In this document: piece by piece, positions 2,544 through 62,839 of the stretch
Layout of the letters: each line of letters opens with the position of its first letter
How positions within the stretch are numbered: position 1 is the stretch's first letter
Virus record (IMG/VR): IMGVR_UViG_3300005918_000018
Source: a virus
Taxonomy: Duplodnaviria > Heunggongvirae > Uroviricota > Caudoviricetes
Strand: one strand, 5' to 3'
DNA length: 64,000 nt
Notes under the pieces: generated by a model
What the model was told of the DNA's origin: nothing
Database searches by the model: none
The model's input: only the letters and a program-made list of their open reading frames with translations
Position numbers and translations under genes: made by a program

Positions 2544-5420
2544 TTAGATTTCAAACTTTAACCAATCTCGGACTGAGTTTGGCTGAGAAGCTTTTTTGGA
2601 TACTTTGCCGTCAGGATAACTTGCATGAAGCATTCGGGAGTACATGCACTTGGCTTCTTTGCTATGTTGTTTGAGGAATCCAGTGATGTTGGCATGATGC
2701 TCTGAGCGTCTCTTATGCAAGTCAGATGCATAATGGCCGATCTCTACTCGAAGTGAATTACACATTTTCATACCAAGAGTGGCTGTCTTAGGACGGAAAC
2801 CATAGAGTCCATTCCGACGGCCTTCAACACCTTTACTGGCAATCTTGGGTCCAACACCCTTCATAGCTTCAACAAGGATCTTAGCAGGCAGGCTGTCAGC
2901 TCGTTTTGCATGAGCTGATAAAAATGCTGACACATCATTGTCTTTATTCCAAGCCATCTTAGCTAATTTCGATGCTGTTCTGGTAGTCTTTCGGATACAG
3001 GCTTCACAATCACCCTGGATTTTCCGAGTGTAGCCGTACAAACCTGATGGGGATTTGGCTGCTTGTTTATTGAAGACACCGCCTAAACTTTCACCTTCTC
3101 CTGTAGGAATGGTGATTTGACCACTCTCTTTATTTACTATAAGGAGATTACGGCTGATCTGGTGTTTGAATTTCCAATCTTTTTCGTCAGAACCTTCTAA
3201 CATGAACTCACTAGGTTCAACTTTGGTACGGTATTTACCGTCAAAAGTGGGGAGTCCTGTAGTTTTCAGAGCTTCTGAGAGCTGTTTGAAAGCAGTGTCA
3301 ATATCTTCACCTGTGTTATCAGCTTTCTTATCGGTGAAGTTGTTTCGGTTCTTGAGATTCTGAAGACGCCATTTTTTAGCATCTTCTTCACTCATGTTTT
3401 CAGTCGGGTCAGCAGGCTTGCCTTCTTCAAACTTGGATTCTAATCCATCATCAGAACGACGTTCATCCATTGGAGTTCTGTCCCAGATACCACCTAATTT
3501 TTCAATGTCCTGATCCATTTGGATCTCATATTCCAGGTCATCCATTGCAGTATGGAATGAAGACAGTTTAGTGTTTGTCTTTTTCTCAGCAGTCTCAATC
3601 AGACCCACCAAGATTTTCTGGTTTTTATTGTCCAAACCATCAAACCAAACTCTCATCTTAGCTCCCTGCCGAAGGGTTTTTCCTGTACTTTTTTCGTACT
3701 GACTCACCAGTTCTCTGGTATCAGCATACAAACTTTTCACAGAAACCAACAGGTTGTAAACATCATCAATGTCCATCCTGTAATAGGATGCAGGGGATTT
3801 GGCAGCTTCTTTGAACTTGTCTTTGTTCAATTCCTTCTGTTCTTTCCATTTCTTCTTATCTTCAGGACTCATGTTCTCAGTCGGGTCAGCAGGGACACCT
3901 TCTTCAAACCGAGCAGACATCTCATCCTCTTGGATGGCTCGACGGCTTTCTCTTTTCACTTTGTCTTCCCAAGCAAAAGCAGCCATATTCAACCAGAAAA
4001 TAACATCAGCAATCTCATCGAAATCATGAAGTTTTTTAATCCCCCCAGCTCTGGAAGCATCAGATGCTTTCCAGTCCCAGAATTCATCAGGCATTTTGAT
4101 TTTGTTGAATTGGTAAGCCTTTGGTGGGAATCTGGAAGCTATGATGTCTCGGACATCACCACAGGTTTTGGCTGTCTTGATTTCAGGTTCCATCCCTGGC
4201 ATCAGGCTTCCTGGACCTTCGGGGAGTCTATCTTCTTCAGTTTGAATGATTTCCCCGGCAGTTAGGTTTTGAAGTTCATCCATAGCTGTCATAGTATTTT
4301 CCTCTTGGGCAAATTTCATATTCCCAGCAGGTTGTTGAATAGCTGATTTAAAGAACGTGATGAAATCTCTATGGAGTTTTAGATAACCATAGAAGGTATC
4401 ATTATTTTCGAAGTTGAAGTTTTGATAGTCTACTTTAACACTACCTTCAATCTCAGCATCTTTGAGCCACTGTTTAGCACTGCTGAGATTAAACTCCGTA
4501 ACATCCTCTAATTTCCCTATTGTGAGCCAAGGTTCGGCATCTTCCCACTCACCATCACCAGGAACCCAATCACTGTTGGGGTCTCCATTGTAGCTCGTGG
4601 GTTTGGAAGGTGATCGGTCATGAGCTGTTTCTAAACCATCATCATAATTGACAGGACCACCATGTTTAATAACCCCGAAATTCTTGATTACCTGATAATG
4701 TCCGTTAACAACAACACCCACGTTTTGGATGGTAATTTTATTGTTAGGTAAATTACCCTCATCCTCATCCCCCTCTATATCTTTAGGTCGGACAACAGGT
4801 TTAGGCACGATGAACCGAGCTCTACCTGAGAGGACGATATACAGATATGGCATATGAGCTGATTGTTTGCTCTCACTAGTAAGTTCTTTCAATTCATCAT
4901 AAGCAGTTATAGTATTTTCCCTTTGGGAGCCTAACCGTAGATACCAACCTGTGTGCTTCTCAAAAACCTTTACCAGTTGGTCAAAATAGACATTTTTGAA
5001 TTCTTTGATTTTTCTAGCACCTTTGGAAGGAGTGGTATATGAGAACTCTAAGTCGTAAAGGTCCATACCATTCAATGTGATTTCAAGGGTGTTACCTGTC
5101 TTGGAAGGCTTTCTGGCAGGCCATTGAAACCAAATCCCTTTTGGCCTTGCTACGACCCGTTTCACACCGAGAAACATTTTAAGTTTTCGAAGACCGCCCA
5201 GTTGTTCTATGATAGTCTTAGCAATCTGATTTGCTTGCTTTGAGGAAGGGCTGGCTTTCTTGAGCAGATCACCATACTCATCATTCATCTCCACCCATTT
5301 CTCAGCAGCTTCAGGATTCCCGTGTTCTTTGAGGTACTTAGGAACGTCCACTGGTTTCCCTTTGGGGTGTCGGCTGACTCGTTCCAGCTCTTTTAGAGCT
5401 TCTTTGGTAGATTTGCTCAT
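2544..5420 (-). CDS. large hypothetical protein with internal tandem repeats
   Basis: 958 aa. Two ~60-aa internal repeats ('FEEG[VK]PADPTENMS.ED.KKW..Q'). No recognisable catalytic motif. First gene of a long minus-strand operon (2544-8782). Confidence 0.5.
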   Translation of the reverse strand: MSKSTKEALKELERVSRHPKGKPVDVPKYLKEHGNPEAAEKWVEMNDEYGDLLKKASPSSKQANQIAKTIIEQLGGLRKLKMFLGVKRVVARPKGIWFQWPARKPSKTGNTLEITLNGMDLYDLEFSYTTPSKGARKIKEFKNVYFDQLVKVFEKHTGWYLRLGSQRENTITAYDELKELTSESKQSAHMPYLYIVLSGRARFIVPKPVVRPKDIEGDEDEGNLPNNKITIQNVGVVVNGHYQVIKNFGVIKHGGPVNYDDGLETAHDRSPSKPTSYNGDPNSDWVPGDGEWEDAEPWLTIGKLEDVTEFNLSSAKQWLKDAEIEGSVKVDYQNFNFENNDTFYGYLKLHRDFITFFKSAIQQPAGNMKFAQEENTMTAMDELQNLTAGEIIQTEEDRLPEGPGSLMPGMEPEIKTAKTCGDVRDIIASRFPPKAYQFNKIKMPDEFWDWKASDASRAGGIKKLHDFDEIADVIFWLNMAAFAWEDKVKRESRRAIQEDEMSARFEEGVPADPTENMSPEDKKKWKEQKELNKDKFKEAAKSPASYYRMDIDDVYNLLVSVKSLYADTRELVSQYEKSTGKTLRQGAKMRVWFDGLDNKNQKILVGLIETAEKKTNTKLSSFHTAMDDLEYEIQMDQDIEKLGGIWDRTPMDERRSDDGLESKFEEGKPADPTENMSEEDAKKWRLQNLKNRNNFTDKKADNTGEDIDTAFKQLSEALKTTGLPTFDGKYRTKVEPSEFMLEGSDEKDWKFKHQISRNLLIVNKESGQITIPTGEGESLGGVFNKQAAKSPSGLYGYTRKIQGDCEACIRKTTRTASKLAKMAWNKDNDVSAFLSAHAKRADSLPAKILVEAMKGVGPKIASKGVEGRRNGLYGFRPKTATLGMKMCNSLRVEIGHYASDLHKRRSEHHANITGFLKQHSKEAKCMYSRMLHASYPDGKVSKKASQPNSVRDWLKFEI

Positions 5421-6787
5421 TGGTTTCTCCGTTTAATCCAACGCTGGCCGAGTATCTCGGTAGCAGTTAAATGATTTTCTACATTTGCCATTTTATATTT
5501 TTTCATCGTTTTCTGAAGGATATTTTTTTGTTTAAAACTCAGGCTTTTACTATACACTAACTGGGCAAGAATGTTTTTCAGAAACTTAGTTTCCCACGGT
5601 GTCCCAGTTTTCTTATCTAACAGCTTTTGTATATCTTTAATTTGTGCTTTTTGGTTCTGTGGTCCTCGGTTAGAAGGGGCACGTGGTAAATCTTTCAGTG
5701 AGTATGTTCCTCCGCTGTATTGACGACCGACATACCAAGTATCACCCTCGTCATTATGGGCATAACCTTTATTATCAACTGATATCTCATAAGCAGTTTT
5801 AGTAAGAGTATTTTCTTCCTCTGAGATCGTCATCGTTTCACCCTTGTTCTTAGGGCAAAGGTCATTATTGTAAGGGCTGTTTTTACGACATAGAGGGTTT
5901 GTGTCCCTCGAAGCTGTTACCTGTTTACCATCAGGAGTAATCTCCGTCATTACAGCACAGGCTGGGCGACGTACCAAGTAATCCGGCCATTTCTCAAACC
6001 ACTTGTGGTAAAACTCATCTTTTGGAACAATACGGACGGTTTCTTCCGGGTCAGGGATATTAGGATCTGCAACGGATACGTTCCCGTCGGCATCCACATC
6101 GAATACAACAGAAGCATGTGACCAGTCACGGCCTTCGGGATTCCAAGCAATCATTACAGGAATCCCTTTGTCAGTCCATTCTTTCAACTGAGGGACAGTG
6201 CAAGGAGTTACCAATACTGTTCGGAAACCGAAATGTTGTGAAGCAGCTATGACATTTTCCCAAGCTGCTCCCTGCATGGGAGCAGCCCCCATGATTTTGT
6301 TGACTGTGTCTTCATTCAATTCAGGACGGCCAAGAGCTTGAAGGCACATCGTAAGAGAAGTGGCCATACAAGTGTATTGGGTCCGTTGCCTGACGGGAGT
6401 GACATTAGCTTTAGCAAGTTTTATGTTTTTGTAATTTATTTTGTTTTGGCCTTTTAAAATAATATAACCTTTATTCACTTTGGTTATTTTATCCTTATCA
6501 TTTTTTGTTATGATAGCCATCCAAATCTTATTTGTATCAGCATCTTTATCAAAACCTTTTACATTCATATGATTAAGATAATAAAATATTTGTTTTGTTA
6601 TGTTTGATTTACGAAAATCCATATTTTGAACAACAAAGTAGTAGCCTTTTGAATCAATGAAATGAAAACCATTATCAAAAACAGCATAGTTATCTGTGTC
6701 AGCATCTTTAAACATTACTACATTTACTTGACCTTTTTTTATATGGGAACCCCAAATATTTTGAGGGGTTTTAGCTTTTCGTTTCAT
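5417..6787 (-). CDS. hypothetical protein with C39-like (papain-fold) cysteine peptidase domain
   Basis: 456 aa. 'QYTCMATSLTMCLQAL' gives a Q..C oxyanion/catalytic pair, with a downstream His (WSHASVV) and Asp/Asn, as in the bacteriocin-processing C39 family. Confidence 0.4.
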   Translation of the reverse strand: MKRKAKTPQNIWGSHIKKGQVNVVMFKDADTDNYAVFDNGFHFIDSKGYYFVVQNMDFRKSNITKQIFYYLNHMNVKGFDKDADTNKIWMAIITKNDKDKITKVNKGYIILKGQNKINYKNIKLAKANVTPVRQRTQYTCMATSLTMCLQALGRPELNEDTVNKIMGAAPMQGAAWENVIAASQHFGFRTVLVTPCTVPQLKEWTDKGIPVMIAWNPEGRDWSHASVVFDVDADGNVSVADPNIPDPEETVRIVPKDEFYHKWFEKWPDYLVRRPACAVMTEITPDGKQVTASRDTNPLCRKNSPYNNDLCPKNKGETMTISEEENTLTKTAYEISVDNKGYAHNDEGDTWYVGRQYSGGTYSLKDLPRAPSNRGPQNQKAQIKDIQKLLDKKTGTPWETKFLKNILAQLVYSKSLSFKQKNILQKTMKKYKMANVENHLTATEILGQRWIKRRNQ

Positions 6788-8994: not shown

Positions 8995-9258
8995 ATGACT
9001 TATGAAGAATTAGTTGAAAACATAGCAGAGGTGTCAGGACACCCTATTGAGACAATAAAAGATATTATATGGGCCATCCCTGATATTCTTACCGATATGA
9101 AAGAAGGAGAGAGAACCTACACACCTATGGGGATTTTCCACATGCTCAGAACTAAGAAAAAAACAGTTATGATGCCAGACCAGTCAAGGGAAGTGCCTAT
9201 CAAGCCTAAGCTTTTAGTGAAATTAAGAGCTAATGATCGTATGAAAAGATTTATTTAA
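8995..9258 (+). CDS. HU/IHF-like DNA-binding protein
   Basis: 87 aa. The pattern 'GIFHMLRTKKKTVMMPDQSREVPIKPKLLVKLRANDRMK' matches the HU beta-arm (GxF.V..R..R.GRNP.T...I.A...P.FK.G..LK). Confidence 0.6.
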   Translation: MTYEELVENIAEVSGHPIETIKDIIWAIPDILTDMKEGERTYTPMGIFHMLRTKKKTVMMPDQSREVPIKPKLLVKLRANDRMKRFI

Positions 9259-12516: not shown

Positions 12517-12600
12517 TGGGGTAGTGTCGGAACTGGTATACGAGCTGGTCTCAGAAATCAGTGCTGTAATGGCATGTGGGTTCGAATCCCACCTACCCCA
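12517..12600 (+). tRNA. tRNA-Leu(CAG), type II
   Basis: Acceptor GGGGTAG/CTACCCC. Anticodon stem CTGGT/ATCAG with loop CTCAGAA. T-loop GGGTTCGAATCCCAC. Confidence 0.7.
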
Positions 12601-12687
12601 ATTCAACGAAGATCAAACCACCTCTACGTGGTGTTGAGTATCAACTGGATTCTTAATTGAATTTAGGCTAAGAGTTTGATCAATTTG

Positions 12688-13513: not shown

Positions 13514-14236
13514 ATGCCCAAGAAAACAAAGAAAAAACAGACACCTAAATTAAAGAAAGCCTCAAAAAAGAAAGAAACTCCGGTTAGGGAAATCACACTT
13601 GATGATTTCCCCCCAGTTGAAGAAGTTATTAAAATTGAGGACCTGTTTAAAATAAGAAGTTTTTCACGTCTGAAAGAACCTCTCAGTGATGTGGAGAGGT
13701 ATCAGATAAGACTTTTGAGATCTGCTAAGGTTAAAATACCCTTTACTGAGGAAGGTGCTGTTAATATTTATGCCGTTGAAGACTTAATGAGTTCTTTCCA
13801 CTGTCACATGAATCCTGAAGAGGATGGTTGGAGTCAAGCTCTAGTAGATATGGCATTTAAAGACGGGACTATCTTCAAACTTAGTTTCCGAAATATCATA
13901 AACCTCTTGAAAACAGGTGATGGGGTTAAGTTTAACGTAGAACAAAAAGATTTATGGAAATTCATGTCTATGGCTTTCCATAATGGAGCTTTGATGAGTA
14001 TGAGTCTAAATGATGTGATGGTTATCATAAAAGCCTTTAAAAAGACCCCAGACTTTTTCAAATCCAGTAAAGTTCCAAAAGCTATCATGAAATTTAGAAC
14101 CCGTAAAAATAACCTTATTCAAGGTTTGAAGGTAGTTCTAACTCTGGGTGCTATATCAAGCCACAAATGTCATTGTGATTCACATGATGATGGTAGATAT
14201 GGAATAAACAGCCGTGTTATCCATCCAATAAAATAA
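13514..14236 (+). CDS. hypothetical protein (Lys-rich N-terminus)
   Basis: 240 aa. GGAG RBS. Confidence 0.5.
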   Translation: MPKKTKKKQTPKLKKASKKKETPVREITLDDFPPVEEVIKIEDLFKIRSFSRLKEPLSDVERYQIRLLRSAKVKIPFTEEGAVNIYAVEDLMSSFHCHMNPEEDGWSQALVDMAFKDGTIFKLSFRNIINLLKTGDGVKFNVEQKDLWKFMSMAFHNGALMSMSLNDVMVIIKAFKKTPDFFKSSKVPKAIMKFRTRKNNLIQGLKVVLTLGAISSHKCHCDSHDDGRYGINSRVIHPIK

Positions 14237-14243
14237 AATAAAT

Positions 14244-14319
14244 GCCTCGTGAGCTAGTGCGGTCATAGCGTTCCGTTGAAGCCGGAAAGAAATCCGTTCG
14301 ACTCGGGTACGGGGCACCA
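14244..14319 (+). tRNA. tRNA-Phe(GAA), copy 1 (divergent)
   Basis: Acceptor GCCTCGT/ACGGGGC plus A-CCA. Anticodon stem TTCCG/CGGAA with loop TTGAAGC. Confidence 0.55.
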
Positions 14320-14323
14320 TTAT

Positions 14324-14398
14324 GGGGGCGGCTCTGGGTAAGCACGTTGGACTCCAAATCCGACGGTTTGGAAAGTTCGATTCTTTCCGTCCCTGCCA
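14324..14398 (+). tRNA. tRNA-like, anticodon CCA (Trp-like), atypical D-arm
   Basis: Anticodon stem TTGGA/TCCGA with loop CTCCAAA. T-arm GAAAG-TTCGATT-CTTTC. D-stem is not resolvable. Confidence 0.4.
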
Positions 14399-14532
14399 TA
14401 AAAATGAAAAACCCGTCAGTTTGAGCTTGTTTGCAAATGAGCAACAGAGGCTTGACGGGTATGCTGTAGACTAAGGTATCAAATTCTAAAAAGAATGCAA
14501 GTTTTTCGGGTAAGGTATCTTGTAAATGTTTT

Positions 14533-14608
14533 CCCTAGATAGCTCAGTCGGTAGAGCACTGCACTGAAAATGCAGGAGTCACCTGTTCAATTCAGGTTCT
14601 AGGGGCCA
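14533..14608 (+). tRNA. tRNA-Phe(GAA), canonical
   Basis: D-arm TAGCTCAGTCGGTAGAGCA. Anticodon stem CTGCA/TGCAG with loop CTGAAAA. T-loop GTTCAATTC. CCA encoded. Confidence 0.8.
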
Positions 14609-14611
14609 TTT

Positions 14612-14797
14612 ATGTCTGGAGCAAGCTGATGGGTGACAGCATCCTGCCTTTGTGCAGGAGAGAGTTGTGGGTTCGATACCTTCTACATCTTTACGGATGT
14701 AGTAAATGGAAACACTCTTTGGAGGTTCGAATCCTCTCTCCATTCATTTTTTATGGGACCGTGGTGGAACTGGTAGACATAGGAGACTACTGGTAAT
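14612..14797 (+). pseudogene. cluster of degenerate tRNA fragments / minihelix-like pseudo-tRNAs
   Basis: Two T-arm motifs (GGGTTCGATACC, GGAGGTTCGAATCCTCT) with acceptor-like hairpins in non-canonical order. These are followed by a tRNA 5'-half look-alike GGGACCGTGGTGGAACTGGTAGACAT directly upstream of the HNH gene. Confidence 0.4.
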
Positions 14798-14830
14798 ATG
14801 CCTATACCTTCTCTTATTAGGAGGTATGAC

Positions 14831-15598
14831 ATGAAAATAGATGATAACATTTTCAAATCCATCGTGGAATCCAGTTATTCAATTAGGCAGGTGATTCTAA
14901 AATCAGGGTTAATTCCTGCTGGTGGTAATTATGTAACGATTAAGAACCGAATTGCAGCTTTGGATTTGGATTCCTCTCATTTTCGAGGTCAGGGGTGGCT
15001 GAAAGGTTTGAAAAAACCTTATGGGAATCCTCGAACAAAAGCACTAAAAGAAATTTTTGATACTTATGAGAATTACCCATCACATAGGTTAAAAAATAGG
15101 CTTTTTAAAGAGGGTTTAAAACAAAAAAAATGTAATATGTGTGGACTTAGTATGTGGAATGGTGATGCTATAGCTTTAGAACTTCACCATCTGGATGGGG
15201 ATAAGAAAAATAATAATTTAAGTAATCTTCAGATACTATGTCCAAATTGTCATGCAACTACCAATAATTATAGAGGTAAAGGGGTAAAAACTAAGTATGA
15301 GACGTTATGTTCTGATTGTAGTAAGCCTATCCAACACAGTTCTTTACGTTGCATATCTTGCGTAAAAGAGTCAAAAAAACCGACCCCTGTTTGTTCTAAG
15401 TGTGGAAAACAGGTTAGCAAAAAATCAAGTTTATGTCGTTCTTGTTATAATGACAAAGAAAAATTAAAAAGTAACAAACCTCTTTTTGAAGTCTTAAAAA
15501 AAGATATAGAGGAGTTAAATTATACAGGGGCTGGGAAAAAATATGGTGTTTCAGATAACACAATTAGGAAATGGTTAATATCATATAAGCCTGGGTGA
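14831..15598 (+). CDS. HNH homing endonuclease
   Basis: 'HHLDGDKKNNNLSNLQILCPNCH' is an HNH motif. RBS AGGAGG sits before the second Met (the listed ORF starts at 14798). The last codons (..KPG) and the TGA stop are encoded by the 5' acceptor of the downstream tRNA. Confidence 0.8.
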   Translation: MKIDDNIFKSIVESSYSIRQVILKSGLIPAGGNYVTIKNRIAALDLDSSHFRGQGWLKGLKKPYGNPRTKALKEIFDTYENYPSHRLKNRLFKEGLKQKKCNMCGLSMWNGDAIALELHHLDGDKKNNNLSNLQILCPNCHATTNNYRGKGVKTKYETLCSDCSKPIQHSSLRCISCVKESKKPTPVCSKCGKQVSKKSSLCRSCYNDKEKLKSNKPLFEVLKKDIEELNYTGAGKKYGVSDNTIRKWLISYKPG

Positions 15599-15665
15599 TG
15601 GAACTGGTATACATGTTCGACTTAAAATTGAAATTGTGCGGGTTCGAATCCCGCCCTAGGCACCA
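15589..15665 (+). tRNA. tRNA with anticodon UAA (Leu-like, short variable arm)
   Basis: Acceptor GCCTGGG/CCTAGGC. Anticodon stem TTCGA/TTGAA with loop CTTAAAA. T-arm GCGGG-TTCGAAT-CCCGC. CCA encoded. Confidence 0.65.
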
Positions 15666-15672
15666 TTTTTTT

Positions 15673-15756
15673 GCCTGAATGATGGAATTGGAAGACATGC
15701 TGGTTTTAGGAACCAGTGCCTTGTGCGTGTCGGTTCGAGTCCGACTTCGGGTACCA
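15673..15756 (+). tRNA. tRNA-Leu(UAG), type II
   Basis: Anticodon stem CTGGT/ACCAG with loop TTTAGGA. Variable arm TGCCTTGTGCGT. T-arm GTCGG-TTCGAGT-CCGAC. Confidence 0.7.
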
Positions 15757-15759
15757 TTT

Positions 15760-16110
15760 TTAACCTTGTTCAAAATAACTAAATATTTTAAGGACACCAC
15801 TAGCATAAACAACAGTCACAAGTGTCCCTGTTATTTTTTCTTCTTTATCAGTCTTAATATCTACTGCGGAAGATATCGTTGTCTCATACCGATTTCTACC
15901 AACTGAAATCCTACCAAGGCTGAAGTGATCAACTTTACAGTTACAAGTTTTTTCTATAGCTTTTTGGATTTCAGGACCTGAGATCCATTCAGACATTAAG
16001 TTTGAAGATTTTTTCTTTTTAGCTGTTTTCAATAAAGGGATAAGATGTGTCCTGAGTTCAGGATTTTCTTTAGCTAGTTTAGTGATTGCTTTTCGTAGAT
16101 TTTCGGACAT
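15760..16110 (-). CDS. small paralogous protein family member (ENPELRTHLIPLLK)
   Basis: 116 aa. 'LAKENPELRTHLIPLLKTAKKKK'. Third copy of the family. Confidence 0.5.
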   Translation of the reverse strand: MSENLRKAITKLAKENPELRTHLIPLLKTAKKKKSSNLMSEWISGPEIQKAIEKTCNCKVDHFSLGRISVGRNRYETTISSAVDIKTDKEEKITGTLVTVVYASGVLKIFSYFEQG

Positions 16111-21312: not shown

Positions 21313-21400
21313 TGGAAGCAATCCGGCTGGATGAGGAGCTTGTTTCGAAAACAAGTAGGCGGGCAACCGTCTGAGGGTTCGAGTCCTTCTGCTTCCGCCA
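21313..21400 (+). tRNA. tRNA-Ser(CGA), type II
   Basis: Acceptor GGAAGCA/TGCTTCC. Anticodon stem CTTGT/ACAAG with loop TTCGAAA. Long variable arm. CCA encoded. Confidence 0.7.
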
Positions 21401-24914: not shown

Positions 24915-25268
24915 TGGTGGAGCCGGAGGGTATCGAACCCTCGTCCAAAATAAATTCCTTAACAGATACTACATGCTTATTCCGTTACCTTTTTTCCACT
25001 CATGCGGAACGGACAAATCTTCTGAGTGGGTTGTTTAGAGTTTTGGTTCTCGGCTAATATGCCTCTAACGATACATATAATGCCCAGTCTTCCTGTCTCT
25101 GATGCCCTGACCTCGACCCGGAGACCCGATCAAGCAGGACAAGCAGCTTATGCTGCTATTGCTAATTCCGTGTTGGCAATTAAAAGTTTGGTCTATTTTT
25201 ACGTAGCCTAGACTAACTACGACATGCATCCGTCAGCTTCATTACCCTGTCGAATCCAGTTCGGCCCC
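24915..25268 (-). ncRNA. ssrA: tmRNA (ssrA), tag peptide (A)ANTELAIAA
   Basis: The 5' end GGGGCCGAACTGGATTCGACAGGG closely matches the tmRNA 5' consensus GGGGCUGAUUCUGGAUUCGACGGG. The 3' end has a tRNA-like T-arm GAGGGTTCGATACCCTC plus CGGCTCCACCA, which pairs with the 5' GGGGCCG. The internal reading frame GCC AAC ACG GAA TTA GCA ATA GCA GCA TAA (25148-25177) gives a tag ending in AIAA. Confidence 0.8.
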
Positions 25269-27295: not shown

Positions 27296-28040
27296 AGGGA
27301 ATCAAAAACCAATATTCGTTAAATTGTTATCTCCTTAGTAGGAGGTGTTAATTATGTTACCCTTATTTACTGATGAAGATTTCAAAAAAGCTAAATGCAA
27401 AGAAAAACTCCCACTTAAATGTAAACACTGTGGTGAAATATTTTATCAAACTAAACATCGTATATATGCAGGGCTACGTCCAACTCATACAAACACCACA
27501 GATTTCTGTAGTCAGGCTTGTAGTGTTAAATATCGACGGATAGGGCATCGGGTTGAGTTTGACTGTGAACAATGTAATCAACCCTCCAGTAAAAGATTAT
27601 CTCAATATAAAAGATCCAAACATCATTTTTGTGGCCATATTTGTTCAGCTACCTACTATAATCAAAGGAAACAAACTGGAACTCGGAGGTCAAAATTTGA
27701 AGTTTGGGTTGAAGAGCAGTTGGTCTCCTTATACCCTGACTTGGAATTCCATTTCAATAGGAAAGATGCCATCCAATCTGAATTGGATGTTTATATCCCT
27801 GAATTAAAACTAGCCTTTGAAATCAACGGTATCTTTCATTATGAGCCAATCTTTGGACAAGATAAGTTATCTAAAATACAAAACAATGACCATCGAAAAT
27901 TTCAGGCTTGTGCCGAGAAGGGTATTAGTCTTTGTATTATTGATACTTCAACTTTGAAATATATTAAACCTAAAAAAACTCAAAAATTCCTTGATATTAT
28001 TACCACTATCATTGATCAAACTCTTAGCCTTGATAATTAA
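27296..28040 (+). repeat. dispersed paralogous cassette A (leader + Zn-ribbon/nuclease-like CDS)
   Basis: ~80% nt identity to 56590-57330 and 59620-60359, including the 45-nt leader CAATATTCGTTAAATTGTTATCTCCTTAGTAGGAGGTGTT. Confidence 0.7.
27345..28040 (+). CDS. Zn-ribbon + putative nuclease-like C-terminal domain protein, paralog A
   Basis: 231 aa. Repeated CxxC pairs N-terminally. Conserved C-terminal 'RRSKFEVWVEEQLVSLYPDLEFHFNRKDAIQSELDVYIPELKLAFEINGIFHYEP'. Confidence 0.6.
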   Translation: MLIMLPLFTDEDFKKAKCKEKLPLKCKHCGEIFYQTKHRIYAGLRPTHTNTTDFCSQACSVKYRRIGHRVEFDCEQCNQPSSKRLSQYKRSKHHFCGHICSATYYNQRKQTGTRRSKFEVWVEEQLVSLYPDLEFHFNRKDAIQSELDVYIPELKLAFEINGIFHYEPIFGQDKLSKIQNNDHRKFQACAEKGISLCIIDTSTLKYIKPKKTQKFLDIITTIIDQTLSLDN

Positions 28041-28089
28041 ACCAAGTTACCATCTGACACCACGAGGAGGTGTTTTGATTACGTCAGAT

Positions 28090-28160
28090 AGCCGTATGAG
28101 GGAATCGAACCCTCCTTACATCCTTACCAAGGATGTGCCCTACCACTGGACTAATACGGC
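28090..28160 (-). tRNA. tRNA-Thr(GGU)
   Basis: Minus-strand read GCCGTATTAGTCCAGTGGTAGGGCACATCCTTGGTAAGGATG..GAGGGTTCGATTCCCTCATACGGC. Anticodon loop TTGGTAA. Confidence 0.7.
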
Positions 28161-49468: not shown

Positions 49469-49542
49469 TGGTGACAGGAGAGGAATTTGAATCCACAACC
49501 TCTCGAATATGAGTCGAGGGCTCTACCATTGAGCTATCCTGC
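49469..49542 (-). tRNA. tRNA-Met(CAU) copy 2
   Basis: Minus-strand read GGCAGGATAGCTCAATGGTAGAGCCCTCGACTCATATTCGAG..TGGATTCAAATTCCTCTCCTGTCACCA. Confidence 0.7.
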
Positions 49543-49962
49543 CTTAATTTTTGGTTTCGTTGTTAAACGAAACGAACCCATTAAAAAATCTCCAAGGTTC
49601 TTCATATTTTCAGTTCTTATATCCATACTGCCCTCTTTATAGACGGCTATTGCTTTTTCTTCAAGCCCCTTATGGAACTTATATAAACTTTCCATAGTAT
49701 GATCTCCGTTCCCTAACCCTACAGGGGAACCACAGTCGTTATTTTCCCATTCATCAGGTTCCATAGGTCGGATGTTTTTTATTTTACCACCAAAAAGATC
49801 AATGAAGATTTGTATAAGGTACATATCAAATTCATCTCTGACTTCGGGTCTGTCCCATTGCATAAGGGATTCTTCTAATTTAAAAATCCTTCCAGCATCA
49901 GTATGAAGTCTGTAAACGTCTCCAAGTTTTCTTAAATCCAATTTCCCGTGATATCCCATCAC
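49534..49962 (-). CDS. hypothetical protein
   Basis: 142 aa. Confidence 0.45.
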   Translation of the reverse strand: MMGYHGKLDLRKLGDVYRLHTDAGRIFKLEESLMQWDRPEVRDEFDMYLIQIFIDLFGGKIKNIRPMEPDEWENNDCGSPVGLGNGDHTMESLYKFHKGLEEKAIAVYKEGSMDIRTENMKNLGDFLMGSFRLTTKPKIKAG

Positions 49963-50300: not shown

Positions 50301-51098
50301 TTATAAAATGGTTCCGGGAGAAGGAATCGAACCCTCGTCTGATGAACCAAAATCATCCGTCTTGCCGTTAGACGATCCCGGAATGTATCCTTTTTTTACC
50401 CATTTTCTTATTGAAGTATTACTAACTCCCAACATACTAGCAACCTCCAACTGGGTTTTTTCTTTTAGCAGTATTAAAAGTTCTTGAAAAGATATATCTA
50501 CTGGGATAGCTTTTGTTTTCATTATGCAAAAGAAACATAACCCAGATTTACCATGTTTTGTGATTGCACGGCCACATTTTTTACAATTATATGCCTTTTT
50601 TCGTTTGGAAGCCCCACAAAAAGTAGGTTGCTGGCTGTTGCAATTAGGGCATAGTAGACGTAAATTTTCTAATCTGTGATCGTCTCGGACTCCGTTTATA
50701 TGATCCAAAACTAGAACTAATGGTTTCTTGTCCCACATAGGGAGCAACCCGCAAAGGACACATTTGTTTTTTAGTATTCCTTCGTGTAAAAGACGTTTTT
50801 TCAAATGACCCCTACTGTAAGTAGAGTGTTCCACCATTATTTTTTCAAGTGGTCTTTTCTGTGCTTGTCTGCGTTCCTTTAGTTTCCCACAGTTCTTTTT
50901 TAAACTGTTTCGTACAAACTCATTGTAATCTAAACCCATTTCTTGCATTCTGTTTTTTACAGTATAGTGGTTCCCCCCAACCCCTTTCAACCCAAAAAAC
51001 TCTAATACTTCTCTAATGGAATCACTATTGTTTAGAAGTTCGATGAATTTGTCGTCTTCTAATTTCCATATAGGGCTTCTTCGTTTTCTAGTGTGCAT
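50301..51098 (-). CDS. HNH homing endonuclease (paralog of 14831..15598)
   Basis: 'VLDHINGVRDDHRLENLRLLCPNCN'. The probable start is MHTRKRR (GAGG RBS). The ORF reads ..IPG then continues 27 codons straight through the tRNA gene. Confidence 0.75.
   Translation of the reverse strand: MHTRKRRSPIWKLEDDKFIELLNNSDSIREVLEFFGLKGVGGNHYTVKNRMQEMGLDYNEFVRNSLKKNCGKLKERRQAQKRPLEKIMVEHSTYSRGHLKKRLLHEGILKNKCVLCGLLPMWDKKPLVLVLDHINGVRDDHRLENLRLLCPNCNSQQPTFCGASKRKKAYNCKKCGRAITKHGKSGLCFFCIMKTKAIPVDISFQELLILLKEKTQLEVASMLGVSNTSIRKWVKKGYIPGSSNGKTDDFGSSDEGSIPSPGTIL
50309..50380 (-). tRNA. tRNA-Gln(UUG) (tentative), embedded in HNH ORF 3' end
   Basis: Minus-strand read TCCGGGATCGTCTAACGGCAAGACGGATGATTTTGGTTCATC..GAGGGTTCGATTCCTTCTCCCGGAACCA. 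Confidence 0.6.
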
Positions 51099-51401: not shown

Positions 51402-51776
51402 ATGAAAGGAAATGTCATGCCTAATCCAAATATTCAATGTTCAGCTTGTGGGAAACCAATCTACAGGTCTCCTCGTCAGATAGCCAAATCAAAAACAGGT
51501 CTTTTCTACTGTTGTAAAGCTCATCAGAAGAAATGGCGTTTCTACAAGATGACAGCATATCGGAAATTGGCTTTCGATAATTTCCCTCATAAATGTGATG
51601 AATGTGGTTATGATTTCATGGAGATCCTTGAAGTTCATCATGTGGATTTCAACCACAGTAACGACCAGCTCGACAATCTTCGGATCTTATGCCCGAACTG
51701 TCATCGGGAAATCCATTGGTACGGACGTGGAGAAGCTGCTATGGAAGCAGCTTATGAACCTGACTGGGAAGATTGA
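51402..51776 (+). CDS. HNH endonuclease
   Basis: 'HHVDFNHSNDQLDNLRILCPNCH'. Confidence 0.8.
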   Translation: MKGNVMPNPNIQCSACGKPIYRSPRQIAKSKTGLFYCCKAHQKKWRFYKMTAYRKLAFDNFPHKCDECGYDFMEILEVHHVDFNHSNDQLDNLRILCPNCHREIHWYGRGEAAMEAAYEPDWED

Positions 51777-56589: not shown

Positions 56590-57330
56590 ATTCAAAAATC
56601 AATATTCGTTAAATTGTTATCTCCTTAGTAGGAGGTGTTGTTTATGTTACCCTTATTTACTGACGAAGAATTTGAAAAAGCTAAGTCCAGAGAAAAACTC
56701 CCACTGAAATGTAAGCATTGCGGGAAAACTTTTTATCAAACTAAGAATCAAATTCAAGTTGGGTATTCCCCCAAGTATCATACAAAATGGGAATTCTGCT
56801 CTCCTTCCTGTATGGGTTCTTATCGGTATAAAGGTCACCGTATTGATTTTAACTGTGAACAATGTAGGAAATTATCCAGTAAGTTAAAATCTGCATATAA
56901 AAGAACAAAACATCATTTCTGTTCAAAATCTTGTTCAGCTACTTATCATAACCAAAGAAAACAAACAGGAACTCGGAGATCAAAATTTGAAGTCTGGGTT
57001 GAAAAACAACTGGTCTCCTTGTATCCAAATCTTGAGTTCCATTTTAACAAGAAAGACACCATTCAATCAGAACTAGATATCTACATCCCCTCTCTCAAGC
57101 TGGCTTTTGAGATAAATGGGGTTTTTCATTATGAACCTATCTTTGGACAAGATAAACTTGATAAGATTCAAAAAAATGAAAAAGGTAAATTTGCTGCCTG
57201 TATTGAAAAGAACATCAGTCTTTGTATTATTGACGTTAGTACTTTAAGCTACTTCAAGCCTAAAAAAGCTCAGAAGTTCCTTGACATAATTACTAATATC
57301 ATTGATCAAGCTATCAGCCTGGATTCATAA
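56590..57330 (+). repeat. dispersed paralogous cassette B
   Basis: Leader AATATTCGTTAAATTGTTATCTCCTTAGTAGGAGGTGTTG plus CDS, ~80% nt identity to cassettes A and C. Confidence 0.7.
56635..57330 (+). CDS. Zn-ribbon + putative nuclease-like protein, paralog B
   Basis: 231 aa. Same architecture as 27345..28040. Confidence 0.6.
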   Translation: MLFMLPLFTDEEFEKAKSREKLPLKCKHCGKTFYQTKNQIQVGYSPKYHTKWEFCSPSCMGSYRYKGHRIDFNCEQCRKLSSKLKSAYKRTKHHFCSKSCSATYHNQRKQTGTRRSKFEVWVEKQLVSLYPNLEFHFNKKDTIQSELDIYIPSLKLAFEINGVFHYEPIFGQDKLDKIQKNEKGKFAACIEKNISLCIIDVSTLSYFKPKKAQKFLDIITNIIDQAISLDS

Positions 57331-59619: not shown

Positions 59620-60359
59620 TGGGATTTAATTTCAATATTCATTAAATTGCCATCTCCTTATAGGAGGTGTTGATTATGATCCCTTTATATACCCCAGAAG
59701 AATTCGAGAATGCTAAGTCCAGAGAGAAACTCCCCATCAAATGTAAACGCTGTGGAAAAACATTTTATAAGACCAAACATGTTGTGTATATGACATTCTC
59801 AAAGACATCTACCACAAATGATTTCTGTAGCAGATTTTGTAGTTCTAAATATCTTCATGAAAGCCGCTGTGTTGATTTTGACTGTGAGCAATGTGGAAAA
59901 CACACCAGTAATATCTTATCTGAATTTAATAGAAACAAACACCATTTCTGTTCTCGGTCTTGCTCTGCTACCTATTATAACCAAAGGAAACAAACAGGAA
60001 TCCGAAGGTCAAAATTTGAAGTCTGGGTTGAAGAACAGTTGGTCTCCTTGTACCCAAATCTTGAATTTCACTTTAATAGGAAAGATACAATCCAATCGGA
60101 ACTTGATATTTATATCCCATCTCTTAAATTAGCTTTTGAGATAAATGGTATTTTCCATTATGAACCCATCTTTGGTCAAGATAAACTTGACCGAACTCAA
60201 AAGAATGAAAAAGGAAAGTTTGCAGCTTGTTTTGAAAAGAACATTAGCCTTTGTATAATTGATATTAGCACTTTAAATTATTTTAAACCAAAAAAGGCTC
60301 AAAAGTTCCTTGATATTATTACTACTATCATTGATCAAACTCTTAGCCTGGAGTCTTAA
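59620..60359 (+). repeat. dispersed paralogous cassette C
   Basis: Leader CAATATTCATTAAATTGCCATCTCCTTATAGGAGGTGTTGATT plus CDS. Confidence 0.7.
59667..60359 (+). CDS. Zn-ribbon + putative nuclease-like protein, paralog C
   Basis: 230 aa. Same architecture as paralogs A and B. Confidence 0.6.
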   Translation: MLIMIPLYTPEEFENAKSREKLPIKCKRCGKTFYKTKHVVYMTFSKTSTTNDFCSRFCSSKYLHESRCVDFDCEQCGKHTSNILSEFNRNKHHFCSRSCSATYYNQRKQTGIRRSKFEVWVEEQLVSLYPNLEFHFNRKDTIQSELDIYIPSLKLAFEINGIFHYEPIFGQDKLDRTQKNEKGKFAACFEKNISLCIIDISTLNYFKPKKAQKFLDIITTIIDQTLSLES

Positions 60360-62755: not shown

Positions 62756-62839
62756 TGGCGGAAGAGACAGGAGTCGAACCTGCTAATGTTTTACCACCGA
62801 CGGTTTTCAAGACCGCTTCCCACCGTTAGGCTCCCTTCC
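62756..62839 (-). tRNA. tRNA-Ser(UGA), type II
   Basis: Minus-strand read GGAAGGGAGCCTAACGGTGGGAAGCGGTCTTGAAAACCGTC..GCAGGTTCGACTCCTGTCTCTTCCGCCA. Confidence 0.6.

What the first reader, a model, noticed from the sequence alone, without database searches (positions are those of the whole stretch)
14612..15665. HNH endonuclease genes fused in frame onto tRNA 5' ends, with tRNA debris upstream
The HNH gene 14831..15598 ends ...KPG-TGA, where the CCT GGG TGA codons are positions 3-10 of the downstream tRNA (GCCTGGGTGATGG...). Its paralog at 50301..51098(-) ends ...IPG at the acceptor of tRNA 50309..50380 but lacks a stop, so it reads 27 codons straight through the tRNA. Upstream of the first HNH gene lies a tRNA 5'-half look-alike (GGGACCGTGGTGGAACTGGTAGACAT) and, at 14612-14760, nested acceptor/T-arm minihelix fragments. 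The conserved HNH-PG/tRNA junction in two paralogs suggests a mobile HNH-tRNA unit that homes into tRNA genes and leaves 5' fragments behind.
Basis: seen in the sequence. Interest (0 to 1): 0.7.

Follow-up and report, generated by a model that had tools for sequence, protein, structure and literature searches.

The report
Homing endonuclease genes wedged between phage tRNAs
Two selfish HNH homing-endonuclease genes of a known phage family (relatives of phage T5's F-TflIV) sit tightly against tRNA genes in a giant phage's tRNA cluster, so this is an ordinary new example of a known arrangement, not a new HNH-tRNA mobile unit.

Summary
The sequence observations hold. HNH1 (14831..15598) stops at U8-G9-A10 of tRNA-Leu(UAA). 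HNH2 (51098..50301, minus strand) reads through tRNA-Gln(UUG) in the same register. A genuine Leu-type tRNA 5' stub lies 49 nt upstream of HNH1.

Both genes belong to PHROG 10822, the F-TflIV/hegA family of free-standing HNH endonucleases. In 34 of 38 sequence clusters from viral contigs, a member lies within 250 nt of a tRNA, most often tRNA-Leu(UAA).

Filled and empty sites exist:
- T4 against ACG-C40: the HNH cassette replaces tRNA-Gln positions 8-73 and leaves a 7-nt stub.
- T5-like EH7 against FGS017: the cassette replaces an ORF plus a tRNA(UAA).
- The related phage L095 carries tRNA-Leu(UAA) at the matching position without an HNH gene.

The "conserved PG junction" is not a family feature. 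The conserved protein ends before it, and PG is simply what the two acceptor stems encode. Non-HNH genes in this window abut tRNAs just as tightly; one overlaps tRNA-Met by the same 10 nt. tRNA-Leu(UAA) looks resident rather than imported.

Verdict: a new member of a known kind. The tRNA fragments are plausibly scars of endonuclease insertion, but this is unproven. The same ORF/tRNA overlap was discussed for T4 segB.

The parts
14654..14745 (+). Degenerate tRNA-like pseudogene (the 'debris'). It holds two orphan T-arm hairpins (14667-14683 GTGGG-TTCGATA-CCTTC; 14721-14737 GGAGG-TTCGAAT-CCTCT) and a 7-bp hairpin with a 6-nt loop (14684-14703).
   Evidence: T-arm scan. Relaxed ARAGORN calls a 92-nt cloverleaf with a 2-nt 'anticodon'. 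No Rfam tRNA hit. Fold z = -1.6.
14756..14781 (+). 5' stub (positions 1-26) of a Leu-type (class II D-arm) tRNA gene, cut off just before the anticodon stem.
   Evidence: 2 mismatches in 20 to tRNA-Leu(taa), 0 expected by chance. Alignment scores exceed all shuffles. It aligns with the 5' halves of two degenerate Leu-like tRNAs in L095. No 3' partner CGGTCCC in the window.
14803..14828 (+). 10-bp hairpin that pairs the whole Shine-Dalgarno sequence (AGGAGG, 14819-14824) of HNH1.
   Evidence: Folds. Only modest significance: z = -1.7, 14 of 200 shuffles fold as well.
14831..15598 (+). HNH1: 255-aa free-standing HNH endonuclease with an N-terminal GGNY domain, HNH motif, zinc ribbons and a C-terminal HTH (F-TflIV/hegA-like, phrog_10822).
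   Evidence: phrog_10822 E 1e-49 over residues 2-251. Weak Pfam HNH, HNH_3 and DZR hits. 35% identity to annotated F-TflIV of phage EH7, E 2e-27. 2346 homologues.
15589..15665 (+). tRNA-Leu(UAA), 77 nt with a short variable arm. Its positions 1-10 carry the last codons and the stop codon of HNH1.
   Evidence: ARAGORN. Rfam tRNA 59.9 bits. Counterpart without an HNH gene in L095 at 9085-9161.
15673..15756 (+). tRNA-Leu(UAG), the next gene of the array (right flank).
   Evidence: Syntenic with L095 9340-9424.
14533..14608 (+). tRNA-Phe(GAA), left flank of the HNH1 locus.
50301..51098 (-). HNH2: a distant paralogue of HNH1. The family-homologous part ends near residue 235-241 (about 50376-50394). 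The last 26 codons are read from tRNA-Gln and the 8 nt after it.
   Evidence: phrog_10822 E 4e-40 over residues 12-235 of 265. 29% identity to HNH1. 31% identity to F-TflIV of EH7.
50309..50382 (-). tRNA-Gln(UUG), lying wholly inside the HNH2 reading frame.
   Evidence: ARAGORN. Rfam 58.8 bits.
51402..51776 (+). A third, small (124-aa) HNH endonuclease gene, divergent from HNH2.
   Evidence: Pfam HNH 28.2 bits, above the cut-off. PHROG HNH families.

Best explanation
HNH1 and HNH2 are free-standing homing-endonuclease genes of the F-TflIV/hegA family.

By analogy with characterised relatives, the enzyme nicks or cuts a tRNA gene, or a site next to one, in a co-infecting phage that lacks the gene. 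Repair copies the endonuclease cassette into the tRNA array (inferred).

The cassettes occupy the short slots between tRNA genes, or replace a tRNA gene. Because this phage packs genes directly against tRNA 5' ends, each ORF runs a few codons past its conserved C-terminal HTH into the next tRNA. HNH1 stops at the U8-G9-A10 triplet of tRNA-Leu(UAA). tRNA-Gln has UCG at those positions, so HNH2 reads on through the whole tRNA (shown).

The shared 'PG' is simply what the two acceptor stems (CCU-GGG and CCG-GGA) encode in that frame.

The Leu-type 5' stub and the degenerate tRNA upstream of HNH1 are most likely scars of break repair or of tRNA-gene turnover in the array (inferred).

The HNH genes have no terminator before the tRNA, so they are probably co-transcribed with it. 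RNase P cleavage at the tRNA 5' end would then remove the stop codon and damp endonuclease expression, as was proposed for T4 segB (inferred).
For: Family identity:
- phrog_10822 matches both proteins over their full length.
- 35% and 31% identity to the annotated 'H-N-H endonuclease F-TflIV' of the T5-like phage EH7.
- tblastn finds 238 phage records, including T4-like genes annotated 'similar to T5 TflIV'.

tRNA association:
- 49 of 80 IMG/VR loci have a same-strand tRNA within 200 nt.
- 34 of 38 clusters at 60% identity have a tRNA within 250 nt.
- Leu(taa) makes up 30 of 64 immediate neighbours but only 43 of 454 tRNAs in those loci.
- 8 of 9 further contexts also have a nearby tRNA.

Mobility, from filled and empty sites:
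- ACG-C40 against T4.
- EH7 against FGS017.
- L095 has tRNA-Leu(taa) preceded by an HD-domain gene and no HNH gene.

The junction is not conserved.

Tight packing is general: ORF-to-tRNA gaps of +7, +2, 0, +14, +5, +7, +7, +5 and +1, plus a -10 overlap for a non-HNH ORF.

The same -10 register, ending at U8-R9-R10, recurs in unrelated loci L028, L038 and L065/L071.

[quoted passage not shown] Processing of tRNA-Arg would cut between its last codon and its stop codon. [quoted passage not shown] SegB homologues co-localise with tRNAs and drive tRNA-array amplification and truncation (PMC13096335).
Against: - No cleavage activity or target site is known for these two proteins.
- HNH2 has N in place of the last catalytic-motif His (CPNCNS), so its activity is uncertain.
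- Only 2 of 32 tRNAs in the window encode 'PG' at positions 2-7, and they are exactly the two behind the HNH genes. The rough post-hoc chance is 0.5-1.5%, so a shared target preference for NCCNGGN acceptor stems is not excluded.
- All contigs carrying HNH1 are the same strain, so no population-level presence/absence polymorphism was seen.
- No empty site could be found for HNH2.
- The scar origin of the debris is not shown. The HNH-less relative L095 also carries degenerate Leu-like tRNAs at this locus.
Confidence: 0.75

Rival explanations
1. A composite mobile unit, made of the HNH gene fused to a replacement tRNA 5' end (or a whole tRNA), inserts into a tRNA gene, restores it, and displaces the old 5' half upstream.
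For: A 5' stub with 17 of 19 identical D-arm bases lies upstream of HNH1, and a complete tRNA of the same type follows it. Both paralogues share the frame and the 'PG'. Loci L028 and L081 have tRNA-Asp(GUC) on both sides of the HNH gene.
Against: - The stub's acceptor strand GGGACCG cannot pair with the current 3' strand CCTAGGC.
- tRNA-Leu(taa) occurs without an HNH gene at the syntenic site in L095, with ordinary orthologue divergence.
- The family C-terminus is variable and lacks PG.
- Downstream tRNAs vary, and some family members abut tRNAs in antisense.
- There is no stub upstream of HNH2.
- A non-HNH ORF shows the same 10-nt overlap.
Confidence: 0.08
2. The stub and the degenerate tRNA at 14654-14781 have nothing to do with the HNH gene. 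They are decaying copies from tandem duplication of Leu-type tRNAs in a fast-evolving array.
For: Relative L095, which lacks an HNH gene here, also has two degenerate Leu-like tRNAs between Leu(taa) and Leu(tag) whose 5' halves align with the stub. The array differs greatly among relatives: the 81%-identity group lacks the whole 11-16 kb tRNA block. The window also holds duplicated Phe, Tyr and Thr genes.
Against: The stub ends exactly where the HNH1 leader begins. An analogous stub directly upstream of the same family's gene is documented in ACG-C40. The orphan tRNA pieces cluster only at this locus within 64 kb.
Confidence: 0.35
3. The HNH gene sits in an intron (group I or other) or between the halves of a split or permuted tRNA-Leu. 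The stub would be exon 1.
For: tRNA-Leu(UAA) is a classic host of group I introns in cyanobacteria (general knowledge). The stub is a clean 5' half.
Against: - No group I intron or any other ribozyme hit was found in 14200-15900, even at E up to 10.
- The downstream tRNA is complete and scores 59.9 bits.
- ARAGORN with introns allowed finds no plus-strand tRNA spanning HNH1.
- No complementary 3' acceptor strand exists in the window.
Confidence: 0.02

Closest known systems
F-TflIV (hegA) and the other F-Tfl HNH nicking endonucleases of the phage T5 tRNA-gene region (Akulenko et al. 2004, pmid 15456135; cited in PMC2330249 and PMC10644984)
   Same: Homologous HNH, zinc-ribbon and C-terminal HTH region: 35% and 31% identity, E 2e-27 and 2e-18. 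Free-standing ORF inside a phage tRNA cluster. Presence/absence polymorphism among relatives: in EH7 the cassette replaces an ORF plus a 77-nt tRNA(UAA) that FGS017 retains.
   Different: The window proteins carry an N-terminal 'GGNY' domain that the EH7 F-TflIV homologue lacks (the alignment starts at residue 84). Their ORFs run into the next tRNA. No biochemical data exist for them. The original F-Tfl paper could not be read here, so its mapped sites are not compared.
TflIV-like HNH gene at the head of the tRNA array of T4-like phage vB_EcoM_ACG-C40 (NC_019399)
   Same: Same family. It ends 6 nt before tRNA-Leu(UAA). A 5' stub of a tRNA (tRNA-Gln positions 1-7) lies directly upstream of its start, shown by comparison with T4.
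   Different: The stub is 7 nt rather than 26 nt. There is no ORF/tRNA overlap. It lacks the N-terminal domain (the match starts at residue 72).
[quoted passage not shown]
   Same: It works alike. It is a homing endonuclease gene (HEG) in a tRNA cluster that recognises a conserved tRNA-gene motif. Its RBS is sequestered in a hairpin. tRNA processing is predicted to cut the mRNA between the last codon and the stop codon. It promotes inheritance, amplification and truncation of the tRNA region (PMC2330249; PMC13096335).
   Different: Unrelated catalytic fold (GIY-YIG, not HNH). SegB homologues show no tRNA isotype preference, whereas this HNH family is enriched next to tRNA-Leu(UAA).
HNH homing-endonuclease gene conserved upstream of bacterial long tRNA arrays (Anabaena all8564; PMC8421152)
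   Same: An HNH HEG linked to, and co-regulated with, a tRNA gene array.
   Different: Bacterial or plasmid context. Homology to the window proteins was not established: tblastn against plasmids gave no hit.

Membership tests
F-TflIV/hegA-like free-standing HNH homing endonucleases (phrog_10822) | HNH (His-Me finger) catalytic motif | tested here: met
   Alignment A1 has invariant H120, N132 and C137-P-N-C140. Pfam HNH and HNH_3 hits fall below the gathering cut-off. phrog_10822 E 1e-49 and 4e-40. HNH2 has CPNCNS in place of CPNCHA (an HNN variant).
F-TflIV/hegA-like free-standing HNH homing endonucleases (phrog_10822) | Sequence homology to a protein annotated as F-TflIV | tested here: met
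   BLASTP against the hegA product of Salmonella phage EH7: 35% over 164 aa, E 2e-27 (HNH1); 31% over 145 aa, E 2e-18 (HNH2).
F-TflIV/hegA-like free-standing HNH homing endonucleases (phrog_10822) | Free-standing ORF located in a phage tRNA gene cluster | tested here: met
   Family-wide association.
F-TflIV/hegA-like free-standing HNH homing endonucleases (phrog_10822) | Sporadic presence among related genomes (mobility) | tested here: inconclusive
   HNH1 is absent next to tRNA-Leu(taa) in L095, a relative with 68% identity in a marker protein, but the flanks are also rearranged. Clean filled and empty pairs were found only for other family members. No relatives were found for the HNH2 locus.
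F-TflIV/hegA-like free-standing HNH homing endonucleases (phrog_10822) | Site-specific nicking or cleavage of the HEG-less allele | not testable with these tools
   Needs purified protein and substrate DNA.
Intron-encoded endonuclease in a group I intron of tRNA-Leu(UAA) | Group I intron RNA fold flanking the ORF | tested here: not met
   No Intron_gpI or other ribozyme match in 14200-15900 at E up to 10, and none at gathering score in the window.
Intron-encoded endonuclease in a group I intron of tRNA-Leu(UAA) | tRNA split into two exons that together make one cloverleaf | tested here: not met
   The downstream tRNA is complete. The stub's acceptor strand has no partner. Intron-aware ARAGORN finds nothing across HNH1.
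tRNA-targeting integrative element that restores the tRNA with its own copy | Direct repeat of the tRNA segment at both ends of the element, matching the restored gene | tested here: not met
   Only positions 8-26 are alike (17 of 19). Positions 1-7 differ (GGGACCG against GCCTGGG), and the stub cannot pair with the current 3' strand.
GIY-YIG Seg endonucleases (SegB) | GIY-YIG catalytic domain | tested here: not met
   Pfam and PHROG hits are HNH only. The resemblance is functional, not membership.

The most novel reading that the evidence does not exclude
The GGNY/F-TflIV-like HNH family may be a tRNA-gene-specific homing system with a preference for tRNA-Leu(UAA). It would remodel phage tRNA arrays by replacing or truncating tRNA genes and leaving 5' stubs. 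Its expression would be throttled because RNase P cleavage at the overlapped tRNA 5' end turns the endonuclease mRNA into a non-stop message, possibly handled by the phage's own tmRNA (24915-25268).
Probability: 0.25. Interest if true: 0.55.

Novelty: new member of a known kind. Interest (0 to 1): 0.3.

Why it matters
The finding adds a clear case, in a phage of about 400 kb with at least 35 tRNA genes, of homing endonucleases colonising tRNA arrays.

The comparative work here shows three things beyond the window:
- The F-TflIV-like family is found next to tRNAs almost everywhere it occurs.
- tRNA-Leu(UAA) is its most frequent neighbour.
- It can replace tRNA genes and leave stubs.

This bears on how phage tRNA repertoires turn over. 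That question is topical because phage tRNAs counter tRNA-targeting host defences, and SegB was recently shown to amplify tRNA loci.

It does not reveal a new type of mobile element.

Tried and rejected
- **Group I intron, split or permuted tRNA.** Rfam at relaxed thresholds, intron-aware ARAGORN and a search for the complementary acceptor strand all gave nothing.
- **A Gln-like 5' stub upstream of HNH2**, which I thought I saw by eye at about 51190. The local alignment score of 21 is below the 95th percentile of shuffles (25), so I rejected it. Rfam found nothing there either.
- **Empty site for HNH2.**
  - The 142-aa neighbour has no homologue in 5.8 billion proteins other than itself.
  - A metagenome scan with the 268-aa neighbour found nothing.
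  - A viral-contig scan with HNH2 found no close relative.
- **Variation among the 10 contigs that carry HNH1.** They are 99.5-100% identical, so they give no information.
- **Link to the plasmid-borne Anabaena all8564 HNH.** There was no tblastn hit in plasmids.
- **SD-sequestering hairpins.** One is present for HNH1 but is only weakly better than shuffles. None is significant for HNH2.
- **Promoter and terminator scans.** No more sites than expected by chance.
- **Whether tRNA-Leu(taa) was imported with HNH1.** Its identity to the L095 counterpart (70%) lies within the range of other orthologous tRNAs (68-83%), so there is no sign of import.

Full report
**Setting**

The window carries 32 tRNA genes and a tmRNA by default ARAGORN and Rfam. 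Three more tRNAs were missed by default settings. The exact HNH1 protein occurs on about 15 metagenome contigs, the longest 402 kb. All are 99.5-100% identical to the window. No deposited phage is close at the DNA level.

**Observation**

- HNH1 (14831..15598) ends ...Y-K-P-G-stop. Its TGA lies on positions 8-10 of tRNA-Leu(taa) (15589..15665), a 10-nt overlap.
- HNH2 (51098..50301, minus strand) reaches tRNA-Gln(ttg) (50382..50309) in the same register. There, positions 8-10 are TCG, so the frame stays open for 26 more codons.
- The two proteins are homologous but distant: 29% identity, E 1e-31.
- The segment 14756-14781 is a genuine Leu-type tRNA 5' half: 2 mismatches in 20 to tRNA-Leu(taa), none expected by chance, and alignment scores above all shuffles.
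- Upstream of it, 14654-14745 holds two orphan tRNA-type T-arm hairpins, the only such ones in the window apart from those in the three missed tRNAs. Relaxed ARAGORN reads the segment as one degenerate 92-nt cloverleaf with a broken anticodon loop. It has no Rfam tRNA score.

**What the genes are**

Both proteins match phrog_10822 'HNH endonuclease' end to end. They share the HNH, zinc-ribbon and C-terminal HTH region with the gene annotated 'hegA, H-N-H endonuclease F-TflIV' in the T5-like phage EH7: 35% and 31% identity. tblastn finds the family in 238 deposited phages. These include T4-like phages where it is annotated 'similar to T5 TflIV', Enterococcus phages, and the jumbo phage Atu_ph07. 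The protein search found 2346 relatives.

**Family context**

I examined 80 IMG/VR loci that encode relatives.
- 49 have a same-strand tRNA within 200 nt of the gene.
- After clustering at 60% identity, 34 of 38 clusters have a tRNA within 250 nt.
- tRNA-Leu(taa) supplies 30 of 64 immediate neighbours but only 43 of 454 tRNAs in these loci.
- Eight of nine further contexts agree. Some have the HNH gene converging on an antisense tRNA with a gap of 1 nt or a 4-nt overlap.

The association is therefore with tRNA-gene boundaries in general, not with in-frame fusion to a tRNA 5' end.

**Is the junction conserved?**

No.
- The conserved core ends at ...GVSDNAIRKW[LIV]K.
- Many homologues stop there, and others carry unrelated tails.
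- The PHROG profile ends about 4 residues before the HNH1 stop and about 30 residues before the HNH2 stop.
- 'PG' is what acceptor stems GCCUGGG and UCCGGGA encode in that frame.
- Other loci with the same 10-nt overlap encode PS, PN and PK and end at U8-A9-G10.

It remains curious that only 2 of the window's 32 tRNAs would give PG, and they are these two. My rough post-hoc estimate of chance is 0.5-1.5%. I treat it as coincidence, or at most a hint of a target preference.

**Decisive control**

Tight abutment is how this phage packs all its genes against tRNAs.
- Non-HNH ORFs end +7, +2, 0, +14, +5, +7, +7, +5 and +1 nt from tRNA 5' ends.
- The 142-aa ORF 49534..49962 (minus strand) overlaps tRNA-Met by exactly 10 nt and stops at U8-A9-G10.

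**Mobility and empty sites**

- **L095.** This relative has 68% identity in a 491-aa marker and is syntenic with window 7.3-33.7 kb. It has a 77-nt tRNA-Leu(taa) followed by tRNA-Leu(tag), the homologue of the 116-aa gene and the marker gene. The tRNA is preceded by an HD-domain gene, not an HNH gene. Its tRNA-Leu(taa) is 70% identical to the window's, within the 68-83% range of the other orthologous tRNAs. The tRNA therefore looks resident rather than imported with the HNH gene.
- **T4 against ACG-C40.** Homology runs through TGGGAAT (tRNA-Gln positions 1-7). The HNH cassette replaces positions 8-73, and homology resumes 1 nt before tRNA-Leu(UAA).
- **EH7 against FGS017.** The hegA cassette replaces a 63-aa ORF plus a 77-nt tRNA(UAA), between repeats of ACCAAATTAA.

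The family can therefore truncate or replace tRNA genes and leave a 5' stub.

**The fragments upstream of HNH1**

- The stub cannot be the displaced half of the present tRNA-Leu(taa). Its acceptor strand GGGACCG does not pair with the current 3' strand, and no partner exists in the window.
- It aligns with the 5' halves of two degenerate Leu-like tRNAs that L095 carries at this locus without any HNH gene.
- Two readings remain: a scar of HNH insertion into a Leu-like tRNA, as in ACG-C40, or independent decay of duplicated tRNAs. I lean to the scar, at roughly 55:35.
- HNH2 has no significant tRNA fragment upstream.

**Mechanism**

By analogy with characterised relatives, these are homing endonucleases that cut or nick tRNA-array DNA of endonuclease-less co-infecting phages and spread by repair (inferred).

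The literature already describes the same design for T4 segB:
- a homing endonuclease gene between two tRNA genes;
- recognition of the T-arm motif;
- an RBS hidden in a hairpin;
- tRNA-Arg processing predicted to cut between the last codon and the stop codon, lowering expression.

The same idea was raised for the T5 F-Tfl genes (PMC2330249). SegB homologues are widely linked to tRNAs and drive amplification and truncation in tRNA arrays (PMC13096335). An HNH homing endonuclease is also conserved beside bacterial long tRNA arrays (PMC8421152).

In this window, a 10-bp hairpin pairs the HNH1 Shine-Dalgarno sequence, though it is only modestly better than shuffles. No terminator separates either HNH gene from its tRNA. 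RNase P cleavage would leave both mRNAs without a stop codon. That the phage's own tmRNA handles them is speculation.

**Rejected alternatives**

Group I intron, split or permuted tRNA, and an integrative element with a restoring repeat were all rejected.

**Verdict**

It is wrong on the 'HNH-tRNA unit' and the conserved junction. This is a new member of a known kind, of modest interest.

Noticed in passing
window 12601-12680 (+) and 28015-28089 (-): Sub-threshold matches to the HDV-like ribozyme family RF02682 (36.4 and 39.4 bits; gathering score 44). Each lies directly 3' of a tRNA: Leu(cag) 12517-12601 and Thr(ggt) 28090-28160. The second partly overlaps (28015-28040), on the opposite strand, the 3' end of ORF 27345..28040. 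From memory, this recalls the tRNA-adjacent HDV-like ribozymes reported in phages.
   Followed up: no
window 27345..28040, 56635..57330, 59667..60359 (all +): Three paralogous 230-231-aa genes with zinc-ribbon repeats match PHROG 'homing endonuclease / HNH endonuclease' families. Each converges on a minus-strand tRNA (Thr-ggt, Met-cat, Val-tac) with a gap of 17-49 nt. L095 has one copy (6072-6752) next to tRNA-Ser(gga). This is a second endonuclease-like family colonising the tRNA arrays.
   Followed up: partly
window 49534..49962 (-) and tRNA-Met 49469..49543 (-): A 142-aa ORF with no homologue in the protein database other than itself overlaps tRNA-Met by exactly 10 nt and stops at U8-A9-G10. 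This is the same geometry as HNH1 with tRNA-Leu.
   Followed up: yes
window 14322-14398 (+), 21314-21396 (+), 62760-62839 (-): Three tRNA genes missed by default ARAGORN and scored by Rfam only as weak tRNA-Sec matches (33-39 bits). By their anticodon loops they look like Trp(cca), Ser(cga) and Ser(tga).
   Followed up: partly
window 14411-14459 (-): Near-threshold match to the abiF RNA motif RF03085 (35.9 bits; gathering score 37), between the two tRNA-Phe genes.
   Followed up: no
window 15589-15665; L095 9085-9161; L102 878-954; many IMG/VR loci (e.g. L019, L022, L046): A tRNA with anticodon UAA, only 73-78 nt long and with a short variable arm (class I shape, unlike canonical bacterial tRNA-Leu), recurs across very different phages, including T5-like phages. 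Its charging identity was not examined.
   Followed up: no
IMG/VR loci L017, L019, L022, L023, L033, L035, L039, L045-L047, L049, L090 (about positions 3780-4010): A recurrent module: sigma-70-like promoter (TTGAC..TATAAT), then tRNA(UAA), then an A+T-rich palindromic spacer (AAAGGTAAAG...CTTTACCTTT), then a short (~150-aa) HNH gene of the same family that lacks the C-terminal zinc-ribbon/HTH part.
   Followed up: partly
L028 3870-4755 and L081 3845-4721: In two unrelated viral contigs the HNH gene is flanked on both sides by tRNA-Asp(GUC) genes of quite different sequence. This may be a target copy and a variant copy.
   Followed up: no
L095 9165-9331: Two degenerate Leu-like tRNAs lie between tRNA-Leu(taa) and tRNA-Leu(tag) in the HNH-less relative. 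ARAGORN calls one of them tRNA-Gly(gcc).
   Followed up: partly
window 24915-25268 (-); L095 18264-18612 (-): A phage-encoded tmRNA (159 bits; tag ANTELAIAA) is conserved in the relative (tag ANTQLAAA).
   Followed up: no
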